Of a DNA stretch of 41,149 nucleotides, positions 1-41,149 are shown piece by piece. A program made the translations under genes and the position numbers. Every line of letters starts with the position of its first letter. The stretch's first letter is position 1. Under the pieces are notes generated by a model, which saw nothing but the letters and a program-made list of their open reading frames with translations, ran no database searches and was not told the DNA's origin. The DNA lies in UHGV virus genome UHGV-0455966; one strand, 5' to 3'. Origin of the DNA: a virus.

Positions 1-1057
1 GGTCTTCAAAGTCAGCGATACGCTTCGCCATAATCAGATCGTCGGTAGTCTTGTTGCCAGTCCACAGCACCTTACTGTGTAGCCCCTGCCGCAGGTATAT
101 CACCGCGTCATCAACGCCTGAATATGCCGGGTCAACACCGATTATCACCGGAGCATGCGCCACCTGCGCAGCGGTTACCACCCGTTTCATTGCCTCATCA
201 GTAAGACCGGTAGGGATAAACTGCAATTCAGATGCATCAGGGAATATGCCGCGCACACGGATTTTAACGAAGTCGCTGTCTTCCCCGTAGTCATCAACCC
301 ATTTCTGCAACTGCTGTTTGTTAGTGCCTTCCACCGTCCGGCTGTCAATCTGCGCAGTTTTCCAGCGGTGTTTATATTTGCGGAAACATTCGCGGAAACG
401 CCCGGTGTTACGTGTAGGGTTTCCGAATGCCACCCAGATAATCTCAGTGTCTTCGTCCGTCAGCGCACCCTCTGCTACCTCCCACACCAGATCGGCAATG
501 TTGGATGCTTCGTCGAATACCACGATGATGCGTTTGCGCTCGTTGTGTAGTCCGGCGAATGCCTCAGTGTTGTGCTCAGACCAGGGGATTGCGTCAGCTC
601 GCCACCGCTTGTCGTGCCCAGGGTCATTGCTGTACATCGCGGTAGCGGTACAGGTAAACCAGTCTTTCGTGATAGCAAGGTTCGACCACTTGATAATTTC
701 CGGCCAGGTCTTCGTTCGTAGCTGGTTGTCGGTGTTGGCGGTCACCACGACCTTACAATCCTCGCAAGTGGACATGCCCCAGTTGATCAGCATTGAGATG
801 AATGCGGATTTACCAATACCGTGACCCGAAGCGCGTGCCAGCATAAGCGGCTGATAGCGCGTCTCTGGATTCTGCAGGTGATCACGTATCTCTCGGAACG
901 CATCAGCCTGCCACTGACGTGGACCGGTGGCATGTGCTAATTCAGTCCCCTCTTCCCCCCACGGGAACGCATAGAGGGCATAGCCAAGCGGATCGTGAGT
1001 GAACCCTGCAATATCCTCGATCAACTGCTCTTCAGGAGATAACGCTGTATCTGTCAC
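1..1057 (-). CDS. terL: terminase large subunit, N-terminal 352 codons (continues at 40737..41149)
   Basis: GTG start at 1057 overlapping terS stop (GTGA), RBS AGGATGG upstream; Walker A ARASGHGIGKS and Walker B VVFDEAS in translation; frame runs off position 1 leaving 1 nt. Confidence 0.85.
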   Translation of the reverse strand, partial: MTDTALSPEEQLIEDIAGFTHDPLGYALYAFPWGEEGTELAHATGPRQWQADAFREIRDHLQNPETRYQPLMLARASGHGIGKSAFISMLINWGMSTCEDCKVVVTANTDNQLRTKTWPEIIKWSNLAITKDWFTCTATAMYSNDPGHDKRWRADAIPWSEHNTEAFAGLHNERKRIIVVFDEASNIADLVWEVAEGALTDEDTEIIWVAFGNPTRNTGRFRECFRKYKHRWKTAQIDSRTVEGTNKQQLQKWVDDYGEDSDFVKIRVRGIFPDASELQFIPTGLTDEAMKRVVTAAQVAHAPVIIGVDPAYSGVDDAVIYLRQGLHSKVLWTGNKTTDDLIMAKRIADFED

Positions 1058-5568: not shown

Positions 5569-6369
5569 TTACTTGATAAATCCTGCCACCTTTCCCCGCC
5601 TGTATTCCTCCATCAGCCACTGCGCCGGTGTTATTCCCCCAAGGGTGGCGGCGTTAGGCATGCACCCGAAACTTCGCCCTGGTGGATGGTAAACGTCTCT
5701 CCCTGTGTCCGGAGGCGTACTCATGGGTTCTGGCTTTGCCTGTATGCTGATCACCGGATCGGGTATCTGCTGTCCGGAAGCCACCTTTTTCGCCCAATCA
5801 TCGAGCAGCCTGCGCGCGTGTTTCTCAACCTCAATCTCGCTAAGCTGGCGCTGATACATTGCACGGCGGGTATCACATACGACCCAGTACATAACCGGAT
5901 GTCGCCACGGGAATCTTTCGGGACCACCAGGATATAAACTTTTTTCCTTGCTGTACCGGTGAAACTCCGCCATCACATCGTCAATGGTGACGCCAAGAAC
6001 CATCTTGCTGTCTTTACACCACTTGATGAATTGCCCTGGCGACGGCCAGAACGGAGACTCACTGGCGCGGGCGTGGCGCATACCAGCAGAAACCTGTTCA
6101 CGGGTTCGGATCCCCCCTTCGGCAAACGCAGCAATCCACTGCTGTTTTGCAGCAACTTCCTGCTCTGGCGTCTTCAGGTTGGTTACCACTGCCGCCGGAA
6201 ACAGTTGTTTCAGCTGTTTAAAAAGGGCATCAACAAGCCTCTCTGCTGACATGTTCACCACATTGTCATTGTTGACGTACTGATGCTCATAACCTGACAT
6301 GCGAGAAAGGGCTTCTCCGTCACGGTTTTGTATCGCAGTAAAAACGTTGTTCACAAGAAATCCTCCCAT
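5569..6369 (-). CDS. replication protein P-like (helicase loader)
   Basis: ...AAFAEGGIRTREQVSAGMRHARASESPFWPSPGQFIKWCKD aligns by eye with lambda P ...NGITTMEQVNAGMRVARRQNRPFLPSPGQFVAWCRE; start may be a later Met since it overlaps the O-like gene end. Confidence 0.7.
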   Translation of the reverse strand: MGGFLVNNVFTAIQNRDGEALSRMSGYEHQYVNNDNVVNMSAERLVDALFKQLKQLFPAAVVTNLKTPEQEVAAKQQWIAAFAEGGIRTREQVSAGMRHARASESPFWPSPGQFIKWCKDSKMVLGVTIDDVMAEFHRYSKEKSLYPGGPERFPWRHPVMYWVVCDTRRAMYQRQLSEIEVEKHARRLLDDWAKKVASGQQIPDPVISIQAKPEPMSTPPDTGRDVYHPPGRSFGCMPNAATLGGITPAQWLMEEYRRGKVAGFIK

Positions 6370-7166
6370 GCTTCAGGGCTGTTCCAGTGCGGAACGTTGT
6401 TATCAGGTAATGTTGATTGCTTCTGTCTGCTAATCTGCAGCCGCCTTGCCAGCTTCTGCTCCCACTGTGCCTGATGGTATGCCTTACCCTCAGCCATCCA
6501 GTAAATTCTGAACTCTGCAAGTTCCTGTGCCGTTGGCAGACTGTCCAGGTAGATCCCCTGCAATGAGCTTTTCCGAAGAAAGTCATCTGATGGCTGCCAT
6601 TGTTCATGCATGACAAATTTGCCTAATTGCCCTGGCCCACCAGGAGGAACAAAGTTATTCATCACGGCGTTGTTTGCGCCGGGGTCATGAGGCACAGAAT
6701 CCCCGCTTTTTGTCCTGCTCTCCCTCTCTTGGTTAAATGACTGGTTATATGACTGGTTCTGGATCCCGTTTTTGGGATCATTCAACATCCCGTTTTTGGG
6801 ATCATTCAACATCCCGTTTTTGGGTATATTCCCGTTTTCGGTAACATTACCGTTTTCGGGTCCATTACCCCCTTCCCGGTTGCCTTTAATGTTCCCGTTT
6901 TTGGTTATATTAAGAGAGAAAACCCGCACTCTTTTCGTCGCTCCCTTTCTCTCTCCGGTATCTGAAATAAGCCCCATTTTCATGAGCGATATAAGCCCGG
7001 CCTGCACGGTTTTTTTATTCAGGCAAGTGTCTTTAACGAGGCGTTCTATGCTGGGGTAGCAGAGGTTATATTCATCGGCTCTGTCAGCCATCGAGAGCAG
7101 TATGAGCTTTAATGACGAGCTACCTGGATCTGTCTCCCAGGCCCAATCTGTTGCATGTCTGCTCAT
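6351..7166 (-). CDS. replication initiator, O-like, with internal origin iterons
   Basis: N-terminal HTH-like region, Asn/Gly-rich repeat KNGMLNDPKNGMLNDPKNG encoded by DNA iterons, directly upstream of P-like gene. Confidence 0.65.
   Translation of the reverse strand: MSRHATDWAWETDPGSSSLKLILLSMADRADEYNLCYPSIERLVKDTCLNKKTVQAGLISLMKMGLISDTGERKGATKRVRVFSLNITKNGNIKGNREGGNGPENGNVTENGNIPKNGMLNDPKNGMLNDPKNGIQNQSYNQSFNQERESRTKSGDSVPHDPGANNAVMNNFVPPGGPGQLGKFVMHEQWQPSDDFLRKSSLQGIYLDSLPTAQELAEFRIYWMAEGKAYHQAQWEQKLARRLQISRQKQSTLPDNNVPHWNSPEAWEDFL
6763..6914. repeat. putative replication origin iterons inside the O-like gene
   Basis: About 6 copies of TCCCGTTTT(T)GG at roughly 20-24 bp spacing (two perfect 24-mers ATCCCGTTTTTGGGATCATTCAAC at 6763 and 6787), followed by AT-rich stretch. 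Confidence 0.65.
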
Positions 7167-7181
7167 GATTAATCTCCGCTA

Positions 7182-7382
7182 TCAGCTTGAATGTTGTGGG
7201 GAGGAATTAATCATGATCTGCTTAATCTCTGCCCTGATACGACGGTTTGATTCCATGGTGCACTCAACACAGTGTCCGTTGTAAACCCAGCGTTCACTGT
7301 CATGTCCGTGCTTACATGGTTTTCCGGTGTAGTAGCGTTTAAGTCCGCGCTTTGCGGCATCAATACGTGTAATGATTTCCAT
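7182..7382 (-). CDS. hypothetical small Cys/His-containing protein (cII-position gene)
   Basis: MEIITRIDAAKRGLKRYYTGKPCKHGHDSERWVYNGHCVEC...; sits between Cro-like gene and O-like gene. Confidence 0.45.
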   Translation of the reverse strand: MEIITRIDAAKRGLKRYYTGKPCKHGHDSERWVYNGHCVECTMESNRRIRAEIKQIMINSSPQHSS

Positions 7383-7483
7383 GGTAAGCCCTGTTATTAG
7401 TATTGGGATTACGGTCATTTTGTGCTGACACAAAAAAAAGATCAACCAGATTTGGTTTTTTATTACCTTTGAGGTACGAATAG

Positions 7484-7511
7484 ATATGAAAAGACCGCCG
7501 GGTGGCGGTCT
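7484..7511 (-). terminator. intrinsic terminator downstream of Cro-like gene (tR1-like position)
   Basis: 8-bp stem AGACCGCC/GGCGGTCT with GGGT loop; minus strand followed by UUUUC. Confidence 0.5.
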
Positions 7512-7532
7512 ACAGAGGGTTGTAGCTGGATA

Positions 7533-7763
7533 TCATGAGTAGAAGAAGTATGCCAGTTCTGCTTTTGAGCGCAGCCATTGTCTTGTTTTACAGGCTTTAA
7601 AAAGCCCATTCATCAATACTTTACCTGGCATTTTGCGCTTACCTGTTAAGTGAGTCTGGATATAGTGACTCGTCGTTCCGGCTTCCTGTGCGAAGGCTTC
7701 ACGCTCATCCGGAGTAAGTGCAAGCCAGTGCTTTTTGAAATCGAAATGTCCGTTATCGCTCAT
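7533..7763 (-). CDS. Cro-like HTH regulator
   Basis: HTH-like DEREAFAQEAGTTSHYIQTHLTGKRK; divergent from repressor; first gene of the operon leading to O/P. Confidence 0.6.
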   Translation of the reverse strand: MSDNGHFDFKKHWLALTPDEREAFAQEAGTTSHYIQTHLTGKRKMPGKVLMNGLFKACKTRQWLRSKAELAYFFYS

Positions 7764-7917
7764 AGCTATTGCCTGATATTTATTTCAGATAATAAATATT
7801 CACCCATAAGGTAACAAAAATCAAGGATAGTTACCTATGAGGTGCATTTACCTGTTGGGTAATATTGCTTTAAATTGAATCATCTACTGATTCATATATG
7901 AGGCGATTTTCCAGAAA
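7764..7917. promoter_or_regulatory. divergent immunity control region with operator-like palindromes
   Basis: TTACC-tgttg-GGTAA at 7848-7862 (perfect), TTACC-tatga-GGTGC at 7831-7845, extra half-sites; AT-rich promoter-like hexamers on both strands. Confidence 0.6.
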
Positions 7918-8502
7918 ATGAAAAGTATCCAGGACGTCCGCAGGCAAAATCTCAACGACTTGATCGACCGTGAATTCAATGGTGTTCAGACGCGGATGGC
8001 AGAAAAACTTGGAACTCAGGCAAATCTGGTAAACCGCTGGGCTCTTGGCAAGAAGGTTATCGGCGACCAGGTTGCACGAAAAATTGAAGCTGCCGCCAAT
8101 AAACCCCGTAACTGGCTTGATATTGATCGCTCGCTTTCTCAGGAGGGTTTTCAGCCTGTCGGCCCGAGTGATATAGGTCAGCTGGCGGCTCACAACCTGG
8201 AACGCTGGATGAGCGAAAGCCGCGACCTTTCAACGCAGGGAAAACTACACCGCGCATCCGGCGTCGCCCAGGTGACAATCAGCCGCCTGTTAAACAATGA
8301 GGTCAGCGTTTCCATTTCCACCCTGGAGAATGTTGCATCCGCATTCGGGCGTCACGGCTATGAATTACTGATTCACCCGCACGACCCTGCGACCATCAAC
8401 TATGATCGCTCGCGCTACGCATTGTTACCCGAAACCGAGAAAGCAAAGATCGAAAGTTACATTGAATTTGTCATCAACCAGAACGAAAAAAACAAACAAT
8501 AA
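7918..8502 (+). CDS. prophage repressor with two HTH domains, no S24 peptidase motif
   Basis: HTH 1 QTRMAEKLGTQANLVNRWALGKK, HTH 2 LHRASGVAQVTISRLLNNEVSVSISTLENVASAFG; no GDSM/Ser-Lys dyad region; divergent from Cro-like gene. Confidence 0.7.
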   Translation: MKSIQDVRRQNLNDLIDREFNGVQTRMAEKLGTQANLVNRWALGKKVIGDQVARKIEAAANKPRNWLDIDRSLSQEGFQPVGPSDIGQLAAHNLERWMSESRDLSTQGKLHRASGVAQVTISRLLNNEVSVSISTLENVASAFGRHGYELLIHPHDPATINYDRSRYALLPETEKAKIESYIEFVINQNEKNKQ

Positions 8503-8522
8503 AATCATATTTTTCAGTAAGT

Positions 8523-8548
8523 AAGCCGCCTTCTGGCGGCTTTTTTAT
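8523..8548 (+). terminator. intrinsic terminator after repressor gene
   Basis: GCCGCC-ttct-GGCGGC followed by TTTTTT. Confidence 0.7.
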
Positions 8549-8559
8549 TGCCTATTCGA

Positions 8560-8636
8560 TTACCTAATGGGTAATTTTTTTAACTCATATCTATTGACAT
8601 CAAACCAGATACGCATAATTATTACCTCAACGGTAA
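8560..8636 (+). promoter_or_regulatory. pL-like early-left promoter flanked by two operator palindromes
   Basis: TTGACA at 8594-8599; palindromes TTACC-taatg-GGTAA (8560-8574) and TTACC-tcaac-GGTAA (8622-8636). Confidence 0.55.
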
Positions 8637-8655
8637 CAGACCGAGGTAACAAGTT

Positions 8656-19073: not shown

Positions 19074-19580
19074 TTAACAGTCGTAAAATTCCGGGTCCCA
19101 CAAACTTGCATCGCGCGGCATGGATTCTAAATTTTTCAGCCGCAAAATTCTGTCACACTCGACAAGAAGTTTTTGTTTTTGTTCGTCAATTTCTACTTTT
19201 TTGTGTGCTGGCTCATCCCAGTAATCCAGAAGAAACGCATGTCGCTCAGACGTTACAAGATAAATCACATACACATCACTGGTTGGTATTTTTTTATGCT
19301 TGTTGGTGGTCTTGTCTTTCTTCCCGGATGCCCAGTTTTTCCAGCATTGTTCCGTACCGCTCTCACCAAACTTGTCAGTATAGTTTCCGATGTTTACGTG
19401 AACGTGGCGTATGTGATATTCCAGCATCTCTTTCGGTGGATCCCGAAACAGAGTGTCCTTTCCGAAATCCTTATGATGACCGTAGCGCCAGTGATCTATG
19501 AACGCGTTTTTGATAGGTATTAGCTCAGGGTCCTTCCCAAAAATTCCAGGGTGAACCAACCCCTGGAATTTATTCAGCAT
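19074..19580 (-). CDS. hypothetical basic protein, toxin-like candidate
   Basis: His-rich HIRHVHVN motif and Lys-rich centre; second gene of a two-gene cassette overlapping the upstream gene by 11 nt. Confidence 0.45.
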   Translation of the reverse strand: MLNKFQGLVHPGIFGKDPELIPIKNAFIDHWRYGHHKDFGKDTLFRDPPKEMLEYHIRHVHVNIGNYTDKFGESGTEQCWKNWASGKKDKTTNKHKKIPTSDVYVIYLVTSERHAFLLDYWDEPAHKKVEIDEQKQKLLVECDRILRLKNLESMPRDASLWDPEFYDC

Positions 19581-19989
19581 CGTCGTAGAGCTCCTGAGCC
19601 ATATCTTCGGCAGTGCGTGCAAACATCCTGCGCGAGATTGCATGAGATTTCTCGACGGACATCTTTGGGACCTCATGCATAACATTTTTGGGAGTTGTGT
19701 AATAGCCTATTACAATTTTCACACCTGACTTATGATTAATATCAGCATAATATACTTCTTGTTCAGACGTTTCACGACGAACATAATCTGCCAGTTTTCC
19801 ACATTTAAATTCCCCTCCCTGATGTTTTAAAATCTCCTCAACTGCACTATTTTCAGTGAAATACCGAATAAGAAATTTCTGTCCAGACTCTTCAGCATGA
19901 GGTATAACAGTATTATTGGAAGCCCGAACAATGGCCTTACTCAATATTTCATGGTCTTTATTTTTTTCTGATTTCCTCAAATGCTGCAT
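19570..19989 (-). CDS. hypothetical protein, first gene of the cassette (antitoxin-like candidate)
   Basis: ATG at 19989 with GAGAG RBS; acidic C-terminal tail AEDMAQELYDDAE. Confidence 0.4.
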   Translation of the reverse strand: MQHLRKSEKNKDHEILSKAIVRASNNTVIPHAEESGQKFLIRYFTENSAVEEILKHQGGEFKCGKLADYVRRETSEQEVYYADINHKSGVKIVIGYYTTPKNVMHEVPKMSVEKSHAISRRMFARTAEDMAQELYDDAE

Positions 19990-20150
19990 TACTGTAGCTC
20001 TCTTCGTGTTCACGGGCACCCCCAACTACCTCTAGGGTAAACATTCTATCGAAAGTATACGCATACTGGCAAAAAAATAGGCAGGTATTTTCTGAAATGG
20101 GATCAATCAAACCACATAGGGTTGAAATAACGTGAGTTATGCATTTATTA

Positions 20151-21130: not shown

Positions 21131-21201
21131 CGGGCGGCGGCACAGGGATGTGCCTTTAAATAATTCTGTACGATTGCAGACTGGGGGTGAATAGCGTACT
21201 A

Positions 21202-21216
21202 TTACCTTAAAGGTAA
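21202..21216. promoter_or_regulatory. palindrome TTACC-ttaaa-GGTAA
   Basis: Perfect 15-mer about 27 bp upstream of ATG 21243. Confidence 0.6.
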
Positions 21217-21242: not shown

Positions 21243-21452
21243 ATGGGATTTTGGTTCGCTCGTACAAAAACGAGGGATAATGCACCCAGCCCTCAGGCAA
21301 AAAATGCAGAAGTTCCGGCGTCAGCGCAGGTTAACAAGCGTGGTGGTGTGTATATCTCATCACAGCAAATTTCTGAGCTTCCTGAGGTTAAGGAGATGCG
21401 TCGTCTCGCTGCTGCAATCGTTAAACAGGATCTTGCCACTGTAAGGAAATAG
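21243..21452 (+). CDS. hypothetical small protein, first gene of accessory operon
   Basis: GAGGAGGAG RBS; normal GC; TAG stop overlaps GTG start of next gene. Confidence 0.5.
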   Translation: MGFWFARTKTRDNAPSPQAKNAEVPASAQVNKRGGVYISSQQISELPEVKEMRRLAAAIVKQDLATVRK

Positions 21453-22315
21453 TGTTGTTAGCTCTTCTAATTATCCCCATTCTGGTTAGTGGTTATATTA
21501 TGATAACCGCTAACCAGTATCATTATTTCCGTTTATACCGACATGAAGGCCAGCTTCTTTATATGAAAGTTGCTGCATTAGGTACATATTGCCTTGTTGC
21601 TTCGGTAATAATTGCCGCATTTATAAAATATAAATATCCTGATTTTCACCTAGTTCACGATATGGTGGAAACTTTTAATGTAACGTCAAAACCAGAAACA
21701 GATAGAATTTACATGTGGCTACTTCTTCTGTCAGTCACATCAATTTGCTTCTCTTTGTGTTATGTATCTTTTGTTTGGCTAAAAGATCTTCTTTTAGGTT
21801 GTTTTTATAAACGTGATATTTATGACAAAATATCAGAGGCAATGAAAGCTAGGGTATTGCGAAAAACGTACTCCCAGGGTTCTTTAGATTTGCTATTGCT
21901 TGATGCAATCGAATCAGATCCTAAGAAACCAATGTTAATTACTTTATCATCAAATAAAGTATACGTTGGAATAATAAATGGTTCTGGTGAGCCAACGGAA
22001 AATCAAGGGCCACACCAACACATATCTTTTGTTCCTTTAATGTCAGGGTACAGAAACAAAGAAAATTTATCTGTTACATTTACAAACGCTTACCCAGGTG
22101 AAATCCAAATTAAGCGCAGTGCTGCGATAAAAGGGATAAGCAAAAAGAAAGTTCAAGGTCTAGAAATTATGGTATCTATAGACGAAATAAGTCATATATC
22201 ATGGTTTGACTTTGAAGTATATAAGGCAACAAATAACAAAGTAGAAACAAAGGGTCATGTTGTTAATGTGACCAAAAATGGTCGCAACATATACTACAGA
22301 AGTGGCAGAAAATAA
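21452..22315 (+). CDS. AT-rich membrane protein (3 N-terminal TM helices + soluble C-domain), unknown function
   Basis: GTG start with AAGGA RBS; hydrophobic segments LLALLIIPILVSGYIMI, VAALGTYCLVASVIIAAFI, MWLLLLSVTSICFSLCYVSFVWL; sharp drop in GC at gene start. Confidence 0.6.
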   Translation: MLLALLIIPILVSGYIMITANQYHYFRLYRHEGQLLYMKVAALGTYCLVASVIIAAFIKYKYPDFHLVHDMVETFNVTSKPETDRIYMWLLLLSVTSICFSLCYVSFVWLKDLLLGCFYKRDIYDKISEAMKARVLRKTYSQGSLDLLLLDAIESDPKKPMLITLSSNKVYVGIINGSGEPTENQGPHQHISFVPLMSGYRNKENLSVTFTNAYPGEIQIKRSAAIKGISKKKVQGLEIMVSIDEISHISWFDFEVYKATNNKVETKGHVVNVTKNGRNIYYRSGRK

Positions 22316-22331
22316 ATTTTACGCAGTTTAG

Positions 22332-22844
22332 GTGGCTTATATGGATAATACTATCTTAGGCGCATTGATAGGTGCAGTTATTGCTATAGTTTCCACTTAT
22401 ATAAATGCAGGACAAGGATACAAAAACAGCATAAGATTAGAGCGACAAAAAATATTAAGGGATAAACGCGAGCAATTATTTATAAATTGTATACTTACTA
22501 AAAAAGTCATAGATTCAAGCACAATTACCATTCTCAATTTCGTAAAAAATGCCAGATACCACTCTGATAGTAAATTTGACGTATCAAGAGCGAATCCGTT
22601 GCAAACGATGGAAATGCTAATAAACATATACCTTCCTGAGTATAAAAAAGACTTACAAGAACTCAATAATGCGTATCAAGAATTTCACAAATACTACTCT
22701 CAATATACATGTGCACATACCTTCAAAAATATGCCTGATAATGAGAAGTCGAGGTTTATTGAGGAGGCTGATTTTTATGCAAAAAAGATATATGGCAAAC
22801 TTAATGATATTAAGGACAAGATATCATTAAACTCAATAGTATAA
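22332..22844 (+). CDS. AT-rich single-pass membrane protein, unknown function
   Basis: N-terminal TM ILGALIGAVIAIVSTYI then helical soluble domain; 16 bp after upstream gene. Confidence 0.6.
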   Translation: MAYMDNTILGALIGAVIAIVSTYINAGQGYKNSIRLERQKILRDKREQLFINCILTKKVIDSSTITILNFVKNARYHSDSKFDVSRANPLQTMEMLINIYLPEYKKDLQELNNAYQEFHKYYSQYTCAHTFKNMPDNEKSRFIEEADFYAKKIYGKLNDIKDKISLNSIV

Positions 22845-22925
22845 CAGCGATACTGCTGCTGACGGCTCCCGCTGCGGTGGGCGTTCTGCGGATTCCCGCC
22901 CAGGCGGCGGTGGCATTCGTTAAAA

Positions 22926-22952
22926 ACAAGGCCGCGAAAGCGGCCTGTTTGA
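22926..22952 (-). terminator. intrinsic terminator between convergent accessory genes
   Basis: GGCCGC-gaaa-GCGGCC; minus strand followed by UUGUUUUUAA. Confidence 0.55.
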
Positions 22953-23804
22953 TCACTGTGCAGTTTTCGCTGATCGATTTTCAGCTCTAAATTCAAGAAC
23001 CGTTTCAATATTTCTTTCCTTCAGCATATCAATAACATTTTTATTCATTTGACTATCACTGGTTAATAACTGGTAAACGTTGCTTCTCTCTTTATCAGAG
23101 TTTTCTTTAACAGCTGCTTTGCATGCCAAATGCTTATTGAAATTTTCTACATCGCTAGTACAGGAATTTACGGCTGCTGATGAAATATCAGACGCTGAAG
23201 AAACACCATCATCCAAACGTTTTATAGCATTTTCTATACATGAGTTAAGGGAATAAACGACAACTGAGCGATACCCTTCAGACGCACACCATTCTAAATT
23301 TCTTGAAGGATCGAGTGGTTTTACTTCGCTGGATTGAATTAACTTGTCAAAAACTGACTTATATTCAATCTGTTTTTTATCTATAGCCCATACTTCAGTA
23401 GCTGATTTATAATTCCCCGTATGCCTATTAACATCAAATCCATGTTTTATAAGCAAATCTGCCCATGAAAGATTTATTGATTCATTGTTATGAGGCCATT
23501 TTCCTGTCAGAACCGCCCCCATAGACCCCATATATCCGCCATATGATGGTATAGCACCATGGCTCAGTAACTTCTCAGCAACCACAGGGCAATTAATTAC
23601 ATAAGAGGCGTAAAGCCCATTCCATAAAGCCCCTCTATAGTAATCGCCACGATTAGGTTCTTTTAAGTCGATAGCCTTTGATAATTGTTCACACGTTTTG
23701 CATGCATCAAAGTTATCCTTATTGCATTGCAATGAACTGGCAGCTGTAGGATTTACAGAGACTATTGAAAGCACTATGCCAAAAAACAAATTTATTTTTT
23801 TCAT
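22953..23804 (-). CDS. AT-rich secreted Cys-containing protein, unknown function
   Basis: Signal-peptide-like MKKINLFFGIVLSIVSVNPTAASS; multiple Cys; start 1 nt after stop of upstream virion gene. Confidence 0.6.
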   Translation of the reverse strand: MKKINLFFGIVLSIVSVNPTAASSLQCNKDNFDACKTCEQLSKAIDLKEPNRGDYYRGALWNGLYASYVINCPVVAEKLLSHGAIPSYGGYMGSMGAVLTGKWPHNNESINLSWADLLIKHGFDVNRHTGNYKSATEVWAIDKKQIEYKSVFDKLIQSSEVKPLDPSRNLEWCASEGYRSVVVYSLNSCIENAIKRLDDGVSSASDISSAAVNSCTSDVENFNKHLACKAAVKENSDKERSNVYQLLTSDSQMNKNVIDMLKERNIETVLEFRAENRSAKTAQ

Positions 23805-39585: not shown

Positions 39586-39662
39586 GTGGCATTAGCTCAG
39601 TTGGACAGAGCAACCGCCTTCTAAGCGGTTGGTCGCAGGTTCGAATCCTGCATGCCGCGCCA
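39586..39662 (+). tRNA. tRNA-Arg (anticodon UCU)
   Basis: Hand-folded cloverleaf: acceptor GTGGCAT/ATGCCGC, D-stem GCTC/GAGC, anticodon stem ACCGC/GCGGT with loop CUUCUAA, T-arm GCAGG-TTCGAAT-CCTGC, discriminator G, encoded CCA. Confidence 0.85.
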
Positions 39663-40736: not shown

Positions 40737-41149
40737 TCATTCAAATGGGTCATAGTCTGTTATAGCCCTGCCCTGCTGCTGCCGTGGGTCATTAGTTTTC
40801 TTGGCTACCGGGAACGCAAACGTCAGCAGTAGCGCATCGCCTTTACCCGGCGAACGCCCAAGCCGCTCCTTGATATCTTCCTTCGGTTCGATAACGATTT
40901 TACCGTCCACTCGAACTTTGTACTCTGCCGCCGACAGGTCGTCTGCTGTTTCCTGGTCATCCAGCATGCCGCCCAGCCTCAGCCATGTCTTGCATGAATT
41001 GAACATCTCCCCACGCTTGTTGAGCATCTGCGGGTCAGTAGACGCGCCACCGAACGGAACAAGTTGCCATGTACGACCCCATCCGTCACCGATTGACTTC
41101 AGACCGGTTCCGTAACCGAAGTCGATGAACACCGCGTCAGCCTGATACT
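40737..41149 (-). CDS. terL: terminase large subunit, C-terminal part (continues from window start)
   Basis: Frame continuous with 1-1057: position 1 (C) plus 41149-41148 (AG) form codon CAG joining ...RIADFED to YQADAVFIDFGYGTG... Confidence 0.8.
   Translation of the reverse strand, partial: YQADAVFIDFGYGTGLKSIGDGWGRTWQLVPFGGASTDPQMLNKRGEMFNSCKTWLRLGGMLDDQETADDLSAAEYKVRVDGKIVIEPKEDIKERLGRSPGKGDALLLTFAFPVAKKTNDPRQQQGRAITDYDPFE

What the first reader, a model, noticed from the sequence alone, without database searches (positions are those of the whole stretch)
21243..22844. AT-rich accessory operon of two membrane proteins with no recognisable family
A small normal-GC gene (21243-21452) is followed, with a TAG/GTG 1-nt overlap, by two strongly AT-rich genes: a 287-aa protein with three N-terminal TM helices and a ~170-aa soluble domain, and a 170-aa single-pass membrane protein. 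They sit in the accessory hotspot between the virion genes and the antirepressor, with their own palindrome-bearing promoter region and a terminator. Composition and position suggest horizontally acquired cargo; a membrane pair is the architecture of many superinfection-exclusion and abortive-infection systems. I could not match either protein to any family I know, so this is the best candidate here for an undescribed system.
Basis: partly seen in the sequence, partly recalled or inferred. Interest (0 to 1): 0.65.

Follow-up and report, generated by a model that had tools for sequence, protein, structure and literature searches.

The report
Membrane Sm-fold protein with small partner
The AT-rich genes are real prophage cargo, but the conserved unit is a small soluble protein plus a three-helix membrane protein with an Sm (Hfq-like) domain, a very large unnamed two-gene family found in phage anti-phage hotspots and never tested.

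Summary
The three ORFs exist as described, in a phiV10-like E. coli prophage, and orfB and orfC are AT-rich. The 170-aa protein (orfC; more likely 167 aa from ATG 22341) is a rare add-on cassette: 13 of 159 loci fetched and 8 of 5,426 E. coli genomes.

The "small normal-GC gene" orfA (21243-21452) is the constant partner of the 287-aa protein orfB. A homologous 45-95-aa ORF lies directly upstream of orfB relatives in essentially every locus examined, from Proteobacteria to Acidobacteria and Bacteroidota.

The pair rides on several kinds of mobile element:
- four different slots in temperate phages, including the P2 gpA-gpQ antiviral hotspot, where Rousset et al. 2022 list it as unnamed systems #57 and #43; I found no sign that it was tested;
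- integrase islands with Dnd, RnlAB, Abi or CBASS genes;
- IncC plasmids.

Some copies are stably chromosomal.

Best reading: an uncharacterised, toxin-antitoxin-like membrane module for phage exclusion. Function is inferred, not shown.

The parts
21139..21154 (+). Hairpin GGCACA-GGGA-TGTGCC followed by TTTAAATAATT, just after the antirepressor stop codon. It probably marks the upstream boundary of the cargo transcription unit. It is weak and the scan did not flag it.
   Evidence: Sequence read. The hairpin is conserved in E. coli relatives that have different upstream antirepressor genes.
21174..21202 (+). Candidate promoter TTGCAG-17 nt-TACTAT. It is weak (3/6 and 4/6 matches to consensus).
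   Evidence: Identified by eye. The consensus scan did not report it. The TTGC and TAC(T/G)AT elements are conserved down to Symbiopectobacterium, whose orfB is 80% identical at the protein level.
21202..21216 (.). Operator-like palindrome TTACC-N5-GGTAA, abutting the -10 element.
   Evidence: Seven-base arms; shuffle p about 0.03. The half-sites are conserved while the central 5 nt vary (TTAAA, CTAAA, CCAGA) in relatives. Upstream palindromes are not a general feature of the family.
21243..21452 (+). orfA: a 69-aa soluble basic protein (pI 10.4) and the constant partner of orfB. Its conserved core, NKRGGVYISSQQISELPEVKEMRRLAAAIV, looks like a beta-hairpin around an invariant Gly34 followed by an amphipathic helix (read from the alignment pattern; no structure was predicted).
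   Evidence: Homologues lie directly upstream of orfB relatives. It matches PHROG 5739, of unknown function.
21445..21530 (+). RNA structure spanning the orfA/orfB junction. An outer stem pairs the orfB Shine-Dalgarno and start region (GGAAAUAGUG, 21445-21454) with 21521-21530. An inner 15-bp hairpin lies at 21482-21517, within orfB codons 11-22.
   Evidence: MFE -32.6 kcal/mol, z = -6.0. A hairpin at the same position occurs in Providencia, Citrobacter, Yersinia, Enterobacter, Arsenophonus and a distant siphophage copy. In the alignment test, 75% of cells pair, against 20-55% in slid controls; covariation is reached by 3 of 500 shuffles. The feature is clade-specific: 7-9 of 27 loci.
21452..22315 (+). 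orfB: a 287-aa inner-membrane protein. It has three TM helices (aa 1-116, nt 21452-21799), a helical linker, and a cytoplasmic Sm/LSm-like beta-barrel (aa about 144-252, nt 21881-22207). Invariant residues are G44, K169, Y171, S198, G199, R201 and Y214.
22341..22844 (+). orfC: a 167-aa protein (170 aa if the GTG at 22332 is used) with one N-terminal TM helix and an all-helical remainder. It is a sporadic add-on cassette, co-transcribed with orfA-orfB in this window.
22849..22923 (+). 3' remnant of the 53-aa "transmembrane anchored protein" gene that follows orfB in variants lacking orfC. It marks the right edge of the orfC insertion.
   Evidence: RefSeq annotates it as a pseudogene. The alignment with strain CE0007a shows homology resuming at about 22846.
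22929..22946 (.). GC-rich hairpin AGGCCGCGAAAGCGGCCT, shared by the convergent plus-strand cargo genes and the minus-strand 283-aa gene. The T-run is good only on the minus strand.

Best explanation
orfA and orfB form a conserved, mobile two-gene module, and orfC is an optional passenger.

**What is shown**
- OrfB is an inner-membrane protein. Its N-terminus is predicted to face out and its C-terminal Sm-like barrel to sit in the cytoplasm.
- OrfA is a small soluble protein encoded immediately upstream, with little or no gap before orfB.

**What is inferred**
- The Sm-like domain probably oligomerises and binds a nucleotide or nucleic-acid ligand. Its invariant residues are Lys, Arg and Tyr.
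- It is coupled to the TM helices through the conserved cytoplasmic loop RxxGQxLY.
- OrfA holds orfB in check, like an antitoxin, or acts as the sensing partner.
- On infection by another phage, orfB is released or activated. It then compromises the membrane (abortive infection) or blocks the infection at the membrane. This protects the lysogen population and the resident prophage.
- In this clade, a hairpin that sequesters the orfB ribosome-binding site would tie orfB synthesis to orfA translation and keep orfA in excess.
For: **Conserved pairing**
- Of 147 loci with an orfB-family gene and enough upstream DNA, 123 have a hit to the orfA-family HMM directly upstream on the same strand.
- Of the 24 misses, three are frameshifted copies where the coordinate test failed; tblastn finds an orfA-like ORF upstream in all three. 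All 13 other misses that I inspected show the same small ORF pattern; the remaining misses look like near-duplicates of these by their scores and coordinates but were not read.
- The pair is found in Gamma-, Beta- and Alphaproteobacteria, Acidobacteria and Bacteroidota.
- Gaps between the two genes run from an overlap to about 30 nt.

**Architecture**
- OrfB has three TM segments.
- Charge distribution over 56 family members fits the positive-inside rule: loop 1 net +1.6, loop 2 net -1.3, the segment after TM3 net +1.2.
- The AlphaFold2 model has mean pLDDT 70, and 75-86 in the barrel.
- K169, Y171, S198, G199, R201 and Y214 are invariant in the barrel. R30, G33 and Y37 in loop 1 are almost invariant.

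**Mobility and defence context**
- In phiV10-like prophages the pair sits between the tailspike and the injection genes.
- In lambdoid prophages of Citrobacter and Enterobacter it sits at the extreme end beyond int, at two different chromosomal sites.
- In a siphophage it sits in the tail-gene slot next to Bro-N and Arc/Ant genes.
- In P2-like phages SEN5 and ST15-OXA48phi14.1 it sits in the gpA-gpQ hotspot, in the latter two genes from a bSEFIR gene.
- Rousset et al. 2022 (PMC9122126) defined that locus as an antiviral hotspot. Their Table S5B lists the pair as system #57 (75 occurrences) and a relative as system #43 (93 occurrences).
- The pair also occurs in integrase islands with Dnd and RnlAB (Xanthomonas), with Abi_C and NYN (Stenotrophomonas) and with DndB (Shewanella).
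- Neighbours in GTDB genomes include CBASS cyclases, mad3, DpdE and ZorD.
- Seventy-six IMG/VR viral contigs carry an orfB relative, as do IncC plasmids.
- This variant is rare and patchy: 28 of 5,426 complete E. coli genomes.

**Expression logic**
- The orfB ribosome-binding site is sequestered in an RNA structure (z = -6.0), and the inner hairpin is partly conserved with covariation.
- Four decaying endosymbiont copies have a disrupted orfB, and tblastn finds an orfA-like ORF upstream in each (full-length match in three, partial in L014). This is the pattern expected if orfB is the harmful partner.
Against: - No experiment exists. Neither toxicity nor phage resistance has been shown for any family member, and the Rousset study appears not to have tested it.
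- No PADLOC model matches orfA, orfB or the P2-hotspot copies.
- Not all copies are mobile. In the Pseudomonas oryzihabitans and luteola group the pair sits beside an MFS transporter, with a 90%-identical neighbour shared by two of the loci.
- In Cyclobacterium it lies among housekeeping genes.
- Of 24 GTDB loci, only 3 have an integrase within about 4 kb, and most neighbours are ordinary genes.
- Oligomerisation, ligand binding and contact between orfA and orfB are inferred from fold and conservation only.
- The upstream palindrome is not a general family feature, so autoregulation is unsupported outside this clade.
- The hairpin is present in only about a third of non-redundant loci.
Confidence: 0.45

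Rival explanations
1. The pair is a plain addiction or stabilisation module. It works as a toxin-antitoxin pair with a membrane toxin, and its only role is to keep the prophage, island or plasmid in the cell. It has no role against other phages.
For: - A small gene is tightly coupled upstream of a larger membrane protein.
- The pair occurs on conjugative IncC plasmids, prophages and islands.
- Disrupted orfB copies in endosymbionts still have an orfA-like ORF upstream.
- The architecture recalls SpoIISA and SpoIISB, a three-TM toxin with a 56-aa protein antitoxin (from memory).
Against: - Only 30 of 72,556 plasmid records carry it, and 26 of those are related Salmonella plasmids. This is low for a classical plasmid addiction module.
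- It sits in slots that phages typically use for exclusion genes, such as the P2 old/tin locus.
- Many toxin-antitoxin systems also defend against phages, so the two readings are not exclusive.
Confidence: 0.15
2. The pair is a non-abortive superinfection-exclusion device. OrfB, with orfA, sits in the inner membrane and blocks DNA entry of incoming phages, as P22 SieA, T4 Imm or HK97 gp15 do, without killing the cell.
For: - OrfB is an inner-membrane protein carried as a moron in temperate phages of at least four architectures, often beside immunity or antirepressor genes.
- Its position next to the injection-protein genes in phiV10-like phages fits this role.
Against: - The conserved cytoplasmic Sm-like domain, with its invariant basic and aromatic residues, and the constant cytoplasmic partner suggest intracellular sensing rather than a passive block.
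- Stable chromosomal copies in non-phage contexts are hard to explain by phage-specific entry blocking.
Confidence: 0.15
3. The pair has an ordinary membrane function that mobile elements merely carry along. Examples would be a ring-shaped channel or stress sensor built like MscS (three TM helices plus an Sm-like beta domain), or a membrane tether for RNA.
For: - The architecture parallels MscS, which has three TM helices followed by an Sm-like beta domain in a heptamer (from memory).
- The copy in the Pseudomonas oryzihabitans and luteola group is chromosomal and syntenic, and the Cyclobacterium copy lies in a housekeeping context.
- Most neighbours in GTDB genomes are ordinary genes.
Against: - Pfam MS_channel, LSM and Hfq models do not match orfB or 56 family members, even at E <= 1.
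- The variant is rare and patchy: 0.5% of E. coli genomes.
- The pair is repeatedly placed in phage accessory hotspots.
Confidence: 0.15
4. The 287-aa and 170-aa membrane proteins work together as a two-component membrane defence system, and orfA is a separate gene.
For: - In this window orfC follows orfB after 25 nt with no terminator between them.
- Wherever the upstream flank of orfC is available and the copy is at least 85% identical, orfC lies downstream of orfA-orfB.
Against: - OrfC is in 13 of 159 loci, whereas orfB relatives are in 152.
- Twenty of the 28 E. coli genomes that carry orfB lack orfC.
- OrfC is an insertion that truncates another small gene.
- A 59%-identical orfC follows an unrelated ORF.
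- OrfA, not orfC, co-varies with orfB across phyla.
Confidence: 0.05

Closest known systems
Unnamed "system #57" and "system #43" of the E. coli P2-like gpA-gpQ hotspot (Rousset et al. 2022, Table S5B, PMC9122126)
   Same: - They belong to the same protein families.
- Protein 1 of #57 is 36% identical to orfB (BLASTP E 8e-56).
- Protein 2 of #57 is an orfA-family member (hhalign probability 91.6%).
- The #43 protein matches the orfB profile (probability 99.9%).
- Both are prophage cargo in a hotspot for anti-phage genes.
   Different: - They sit in a different phage type (P2-like rather than phiV10-like) and a different slot, and the sequences are divergent.
- The table gives only sequences, occurrence counts and "2 TM".
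- There is no name, no fold and no test. The family's sequence motifs are absent from the tables of tested systems.
SpoIISA-SpoIISB toxin-antitoxin system of Bacillus (from memory)
   Same: - It pairs a protein of about 250 aa, with three N-terminal TM helices and a cytoplasmic domain, with a very small hydrophilic protein encoded next to it.
- It is the closest functional analogy for a membrane toxin neutralised by a small protein.
   Different: - No sequence match was found to any Pfam family.
- The cytoplasmic domain of SpoIISA is GAF-like, not Sm-like.
- The gene order is reversed: the toxin gene comes first in spoIIS.
- SpoIIS is found in Firmicutes only.
Ligand-gated membrane effectors of signalling defence systems, such as CBASS Cap15 (TM helices plus a small beta-barrel), and WYL-domain sensors (BrxR, CapW, DriD)
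   Same: - A small beta-barrel with SH3/Sm-like topology acts as the cytoplasmic sensing domain. In Cap15 it is attached to TM helices that disrupt the membrane.
   Different: - No cyclase or other signal generator is linked to the pair. A CBASS cyclase is a neighbour in only 2 of 24 loci.
- No PADLOC effector model matches.
- The constant partner is a protein of 45-95 aa, not an enzyme.
Sm/LSm/Hfq proteins
   Different: - No sequence-level match to the LSM or Hfq families was found.
- The domain is fused to three TM helices.
- There is a long insertion of low model confidence between strands 4 and 5 (residues 216-238).
- Ring formation and RNA binding are untested.
MscS mechanosensitive channel (from memory)
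   Same: The size is about 286 aa, with three N-terminal TM helices followed by a cytoplasmic Sm-like beta domain. MscS assembles as a heptamer.
   Different: - There is no Pfam MS_channel match.
- Two extra helices separate TM3 from the barrel.
- The C-terminal alpha/beta domain of MscS is missing.

Membership tests
orfA-orfB two-gene family (unnamed; equals Rousset 2022 P2-hotspot system #57) | An orfB-type protein with three TM helices, the motifs KVYVG and P-x-x-SGYR, and a C-terminal SxFD motif. | tested here: met
   The window protein seeded the family alignment. It is 36% identical to #57 protein 1, E 8e-56.
orfA-orfB two-gene family (unnamed; equals Rousset 2022 P2-hotspot system #57) | A small orfA-type gene lies immediately upstream on the same strand. 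| tested here: met
   The window has a 1-nt overlap between the two genes. In 123 of 147 loci the HMM finds the upstream gene; the misses that were inspected also have it.
Sm/LSm/Hfq superfamily | The Sm fold: an N-terminal helix followed by a five-stranded, strongly bent antiparallel sheet. | tested here: met
Sm/LSm/Hfq superfamily | A sequence match to the LSM or Hfq family profiles (Sm1 and Sm2 motifs). | tested here: not met
   Neither orfB nor any of 56 family members gives a Pfam LSM or Hfq hit at E <= 1. The family profile has no PDB sequence hit.
Sm/LSm/Hfq superfamily | A hexameric or heptameric ring, and RNA or nucleotide binding. | not testable with these tools
   Only single-chain prediction was available.
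MscS-type mechanosensitive channels | A match to the MS_channel profile (TM3 plus the beta domain). | tested here: not met
Known or candidate anti-phage systems (PADLOC-DB 2.0) | A match of any component to a defence-system HMM. | tested here: not met
   OrfA, orfB and orfC give no hits at E <= 1. The P2-hotspot copies give no hits at E <= 0.01.
Type II-like toxin-antitoxin module | Two adjacent co-directional genes, with the small one upstream and tightly or translationally coupled to the other. | tested here: met
   The window has a TAG/GTG overlap and a sequestered orfB ribosome-binding site. Gaps across the family run from an overlap to about 30 nt.
Type II-like toxin-antitoxin module | An autoregulatory operator at the promoter. 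| tested here: inconclusive
   The conserved TTACC-N5-GGTAA palindrome abuts the -10 element in this clade. Upstream palindromes are not significant in most other loci.
Type II-like toxin-antitoxin module | The toxin arrests growth, and the small partner neutralises it by direct binding. | not testable with these tools
   This needs expression experiments. No orfA-orfB fusion proteins were found among 223 family proteins.
Prophage moron (lysogenic-conversion cassette) | An independent transcription unit, flanked by a promoter and a terminator, with deviant composition, inserted between conserved phage genes and variably present among related phages. | tested here: met
   - The composition deviates from the flanks.
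- Hairpins flank the unit.
- Related phages phiV10, TL-2011b and EC.W1-9 share the flanks but not the cargo.
- This variant is present in 28 of 5,426 E. coli genomes.
- The promoter is only a weak match to consensus.
Pfam DUF6338 | A match to PF19865 above the gathering threshold. | tested here: inconclusive
   Two of 56 family members hit at E = 0.035, below threshold. The window protein gives no hit. Nothing functional is known for DUF6338.

The most novel reading that the evidence does not exclude
The orfA-orfB pair would be a new class of immune effector. In this reading, a membrane-embedded ring of Sm-fold domains detects a phage nucleic acid or nucleotide at the inner face of the membrane and gates its own 18-21 TM helices. 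The small partner acts as a lid or trigger. This would be the first use of the Sm/Hfq fold as a membrane-coupled sensor, in a family of more than 1,600 sequence clusters that spans several phyla.
Probability: 0.2. Interest if true: 0.85.

Novelty: new variant of a known kind. Interest (0 to 1): 0.6.

Why it matters
If the pair is a defence or exclusion system, it adds a large family to the known repertoire. The family has at least 1,620 clusters at 50% identity, spans several phyla, and is completely unannotated.

Its domain logic, an Sm-fold barrel fused to three TM helices with a constant mini-protein partner, matched no PADLOC model and no paper in my literature searches.

It is also immediately testable, because it is a 1.1-kb cassette with its own promoter. 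Natural variants already sit in the well-studied P2 old/tin hotspot of E. coli.

The practical lesson for annotation is that the small upstream gene, not the second membrane protein, defines the unit.

Tried and rejected
2. **Upstream palindromes as a family-wide operator.** Only the window, two or three other loci and this clade show one; most loci have p > 0.2.
3. **The 5' hairpin as a universal feature.** It is the most stable 60-nt window of the gene in 7 of 27 loci and is absent from the Pseudomonas, alpha- and beta-proteobacterial clades.
4. **OrfC structure.** The AlphaFold2 model with 8 sequences has pLDDT 50 and is all-helical, so it was not usable for a fold search.
5. **Foldseek against AFDB50.** The library was not available. 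The BFVD viral search gave only weak hits to small, uncharacterised cyanophage proteins, one named Sm-like.
6. **PDB sequence searches.** Profiles of both families found nothing.
7. **Pfam scans of 30 orfA-family and 56 orfB-family members at E <= 1.** These gave noise plus a weak DUF6338 signal.
8. **Fusion proteins of orfA and orfB.** None among 223 proteins.
9. **Literature searches.** I searched accession numbers, PHROG ids, Sm-like or LSm with anti-phage or membrane terms, phiV10 superinfection, and DUF6338. Nothing functional turned up.
10. **My early reading that about 400 E. coli genomes carry orfA-orfB was wrong.** Those matches were to flanking sequence only. The correct figure is 28 genomes.
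11. **The TIR gene beside the pair in the Klebsiella P2-like phage.** I asked whether it makes the pair part of the validated "2TM+1TM+TIR" system. The TIR protein matches the single-gene bSEFIR model, and the pair occurs without any TIR gene in nearly all other loci.
Full report
**1. The observation**

The three ORFs are present as described: 21243-21452 (69 aa, orfA), 21452-22315 (287 aa, GTG start, orfB) and 22332-22844 (170 aa, orfC).

The sequence reads ...AGG AAA TAG TG..., so the TAG stop of orfA and the GTG start of orfB share one base.

The window is 100% identical to a prophage of E. coli GPEC1186, where RefSeq calls the same three genes "hypothetical protein". The window corresponds to one genome unit of a phiV10/epsilon15-like podovirus.

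GC content is 0.343 for orfB and 0.313 for orfC, against 0.476 for the window and 0.529 for the upstream Bro-N antirepressor gene. OrfA is 0.481 overall, but its third-position GC is 0.40 against 0.60 for the antirepressor gene. It is therefore shifted the same way as the cargo.

Hydropathy gives three TM segments in orfB (residues 1-22, 35-60, 85-116) and one in orfC (6-27). OrfA is soluble and basic, with pI 10.4.

Alignment with homologues and the RefSeq call put the orfC start at ATG 22341 (167 aa).

The palindrome is real: TTACCTTAAAGGTAA at 21202-21216, shuffle p about 0.03. No consensus promoter is detected. A weak TTGCAG-17-TACTAT abuts the palindrome. Both the hexamers and the TTACC/GGTAA half-sites are conserved in relatives, down to 80% protein identity, while the central 5 nt vary.

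The hairpin at 22929-22946 scores as a terminator on the minus strand.

**2. What the unit is**

Curated libraries give nothing for the three proteins: Pfam, PADLOC-DB 2.0 and NCBIfam have no significant match, and PHROGs 5739, 3630 and 36918 are all of unknown function.

A word-indexed homology search found 32 orfB clusters, all in Enterobacterales, and 12 orfC clusters, none named to any organism but E. coli.

A profile built from the orfB hits was searched exhaustively against 1.84 billion representatives. It found 2,782 proteins at E <= 1e-3, 1,620 at E <= 1e-10 and 173 at E <= 1e-30. None of the members tested has a Pfam domain. OrfB therefore belongs to a very large, unannotated family.

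Genomic context shows that the partner of orfB is orfA, not orfC.
- In Providencia (a phiV10-like prophage) and Citrobacter (a lambdoid prophage), a 90-aa or 66-aa ORF that is 39-40% identical to orfA precedes the orfB homologue.
- I collected 47 loci from GTDB species genomes, 76 from IMG/VR and others from assemblies.
- Over all 159 loci fetched, 152 hold an orfB-family gene.
- Of the 147 with at least 250 nt upstream, 123 have a hit to the orfA-family HMM immediately upstream on the same strand.
- Of the 24 misses, three are frameshifted copies where the coordinate test failed, and tblastn finds an orfA-like ORF upstream of each. I inspected 13 of the others and every one has a small upstream ORF with the same pattern: a hydrophobic strand, an invariant Gly, a second strand, an acidic or Asn cap, then an amphipathic helix. 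The remaining misses look like near-duplicates of these by score and coordinates but were not read.
- The pair is present in Gamma-, Beta- and Alphaproteobacteria, Acidobacteria and Bacteroidota.

OrfC is found in only 13 loci.
- In complete E. coli genomes, orfB of this type occurs in 28 of 5,426 genomes and orfC in 8.
- Alignment with an orfC-less variant shows that the orfC cassette replaces the intergenic region and the 5' part of a 53-aa gene. The 3' remnant of that gene survives at 22849-22923.
- An 85%-identical orfC is again downstream of orfA-orfB.
- A 59%-identical orfC follows an ORF whose C-terminus is not orfB-like.
- OrfC is therefore an optional passenger. Its AlphaFold2 model is all-helical but unreliable (pLDDT 50).

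**3. Anatomy of orfB and orfA**

The AlphaFold2 model of orfB used 23 sequences and has mean pLDDT 70. It shows three long TM helices, two short helices (127-139 and 144-154), and a beta domain (strands 161-165, 169-178, 190-201, 208-213, 239-242, 246-251).

Over 56 divergent members, G44, K169, Y171, S198, G199, R201 and Y214 are invariant. R30, G33, Y37, G173, P181, P195, Y200 and F252 are nearly so.

Net charge is +1.6 in loop 1, -1.3 in loop 2 and +1.2 after TM3. This predicts the N-terminus outside and the Sm-like domain in the cytoplasm.

The concentration of invariant Lys, Arg and Tyr residues in the barrel is what one would expect of a nucleotide or nucleic-acid pocket in this fold. 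This is an inference.

Neither family has a relative of solved structure by sequence. No orfA-orfB fusion was found.

**4. Expression signals**

The RNA around the gene junction folds far better than shuffled controls (-32.6 kcal/mol, z = -6.0).
- An outer stem pairs the orfB Shine-Dalgarno and start region with 21521-21530.
- An inner 15-bp hairpin (21482-21517) lies in codons 11-22.
- The consensus scan also flags the inner hairpin as terminator-like.

A hairpin at the same codons occurs in Providencia, Citrobacter, Symbiopectobacterium, Yersinia, Enterobacter and Arsenophonus, and in a 23%-identical siphophage copy. There are some compensatory changes.
- It is the most stable 60-nt window of the gene in 7 of 27 non-redundant loci.
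- On an 11-sequence alignment, 75% of cells pair, against 20-55% with slid partners. The covariation score is reached by 3 of 500 shuffles.

I read this as clade-specific coupling or attenuation that keeps orfB expression dependent on, and lower than, orfA expression. The structure is moderately supported. Its function is inferred.

**5. Where the pair lives**

In phages it occupies at least four slots:
- between the tailspike and the injection genes of phiV10-like prophages, beside antirepressor genes;
- at the very end of lambdoid prophages beyond int, at two different chromosomal sites in Enterobacter;
- in the tail-gene slot of a siphophage, next to Bro-N and Arc/Ant genes;
- in the gpA-gpQ region of P2-like phages, namely Salmonella SEN4 and SEN5, and Klebsiella ST15-OXA48phi14.1, where it lies two genes from a bSEFIR defence gene.

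Of the 76 IMG/VR loci, about 24 carry markers of the phiV10-type slot, 14 have an integrase within 4 kb, 6 have P2 gpA or gpQ, and 2 have a tape-measure gene nearby.

Rousset et al. 2022 defined the gpA-gpQ locus as a hotspot of anti-phage systems.
- Their Table S5B contains the pair as unnamed system #57 (75 occurrences). Its protein 1 is 36% identical to orfB (E 8e-56), and its protein 2 is an orfA-family member.
- It also contains a relative as system #43 (93 occurrences).
- The family's motifs do not occur in their tables of tested systems. I therefore conclude that it was catalogued but not assayed.

Outside phages, the pair sits in several other contexts:
- next to integrases in islands with Dnd and RnlAB (Xanthomonas), with Abi_C and NYN (Stenotrophomonas) and with DndB (Shewanella), and near an integrase and a transposase;
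- on IncC conjugative plasmids of Salmonella;
- in 24 GTDB loci whose neighbours include CBASS cyclases (2 loci), mad3 (2), a type II methyltransferase (2), DpdE, ZorD and PDC-S08.

In those same 24 GTDB loci, most neighbours are ordinary genes and only 3 loci have an integrase nearby. In the Pseudomonas oryzihabitans and luteola group the pair is chromosomal beside an MFS transporter, and two of the loci share a 90%-identical neighbour. In Cyclobacterium it lies among housekeeping genes.

**6. Interpretation**

The following is shown:
- a conserved bicistronic module;
- a membrane protein with an Sm-like domain predicted to be cytoplasmic;
- a constant small partner;
- wide mobility across phages, islands and plasmids;
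- repeated placement in accessory or antiviral hotspots.

The following is inferred:
- orfB is a membrane effector;
- its Sm-like domain senses a ligand;
- orfA restrains or triggers it;
- the outcome is exclusion of other phages.

The closest functional analogies are SpoIISA-SpoIISB (a three-TM toxin with a mini-protein antitoxin) and TM-plus-beta-barrel effectors such as Cap15. The closest structural analogies are Hfq/LSm and, by architecture only, MscS. Membership in each of these families fails at the sequence level.

The rival readings remain open. They are pure addiction, a non-abortive entry block, and an ordinary membrane function. Only experiments can separate them.

**7. Verdict**

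The finding is a good lead, but it is mis-framed. It is a new variant of a known kind: mobile, toxin-antitoxin-like membrane cargo that is likely anti-phage. It has an unreported domain architecture and a very large family. It was previously only listed, without a name, in a supplementary table.

Noticed in passing
window 21445-21530 (inner hairpin 21482-21517): A very stable RNA structure (z = -6.0) sequesters the orfB ribosome-binding site and start codon. It includes a 15-bp hairpin inside codons 11-22. The hairpin recurs at the same codons in several Enterobacterales copies and one distant siphophage copy, with some compensatory changes.
   Followed up: partly
window 19074-20025, minus strand: The same accessory slot holds a YafO-family toxin gene (RefSeq name; PHROG 1651) overlapping an upstream 147-151-aa partner gene (PHROG 9503). 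It is probably a separate toxin-antitoxin or defence cassette, divergent from the antirepressor gene.
   Followed up: no
window 22953-23804, minus strand: An AT-rich (GC 0.367) 283-aa protein starts with a signal-peptide-like N-terminus (MKKINLFFGIVLSIVSVNPTAASS). It lies directly downstream of the 1,129-aa DUF919 injection protein gene. It has no Pfam, PADLOC or NCBIfam match and falls in PHROG 6118, of unknown function. It is shared with phage EC.W1-9.
   Followed up: no
window 22845-22923: This is the remnant of a 53-aa "transmembrane anchored protein" gene, truncated by the orfC cassette. The intact gene follows orfB in the variants that are about 87% identical and lack orfC.
   Followed up: yes
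window 1-457 and 40737-41149 (L156): The same protein, WP_000132532.1, is cut at both ends of the window. The source chromosome shows two matching places. The prophage is therefore either tandemly duplicated or assembled as a permuted or concatemeric unit in GPEC1186.
   Followed up: no
window 39586-39662, plus strand: A phage-borne tRNA-Arg with anticodon TCT (reads AGA) was found by ARAGORN and is annotated in RefSeq.
   Followed up: no
L025 and L038 (Pseudomonas rhizoryzae and asuensis), 5770-9120: In this Pseudomonas group the orfA-orfB pair has host-like GC content and sits beside an MFS transporter gene that is 90% identical between the two species. This looks like a stable chromosomal copy rather than mobile cargo.
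   Followed up: partly
L159 (Salmonella IncC plasmid pSTY1-2010K-1587), 5791-6789: A copy of the pair that is 30% identical (68 aa plus 262 aa) lies on conjugative IncC plasmids, between a 547-aa AAA ATPase gene and a methyltransferase gene, next to a mer operon. It is found in 26 Salmonella plasmid records.
   Followed up: no
L014, L020, L023, L042 (Sodalis and Arsenophonus endosymbionts): OrfB is frameshifted or interrupted by a stop codon in these copies, while tblastn still finds an orfA-like ORF upstream (full-length match in three, partial in L014). This is the decay pattern expected if orfB is the harmful partner.
   Followed up: partly
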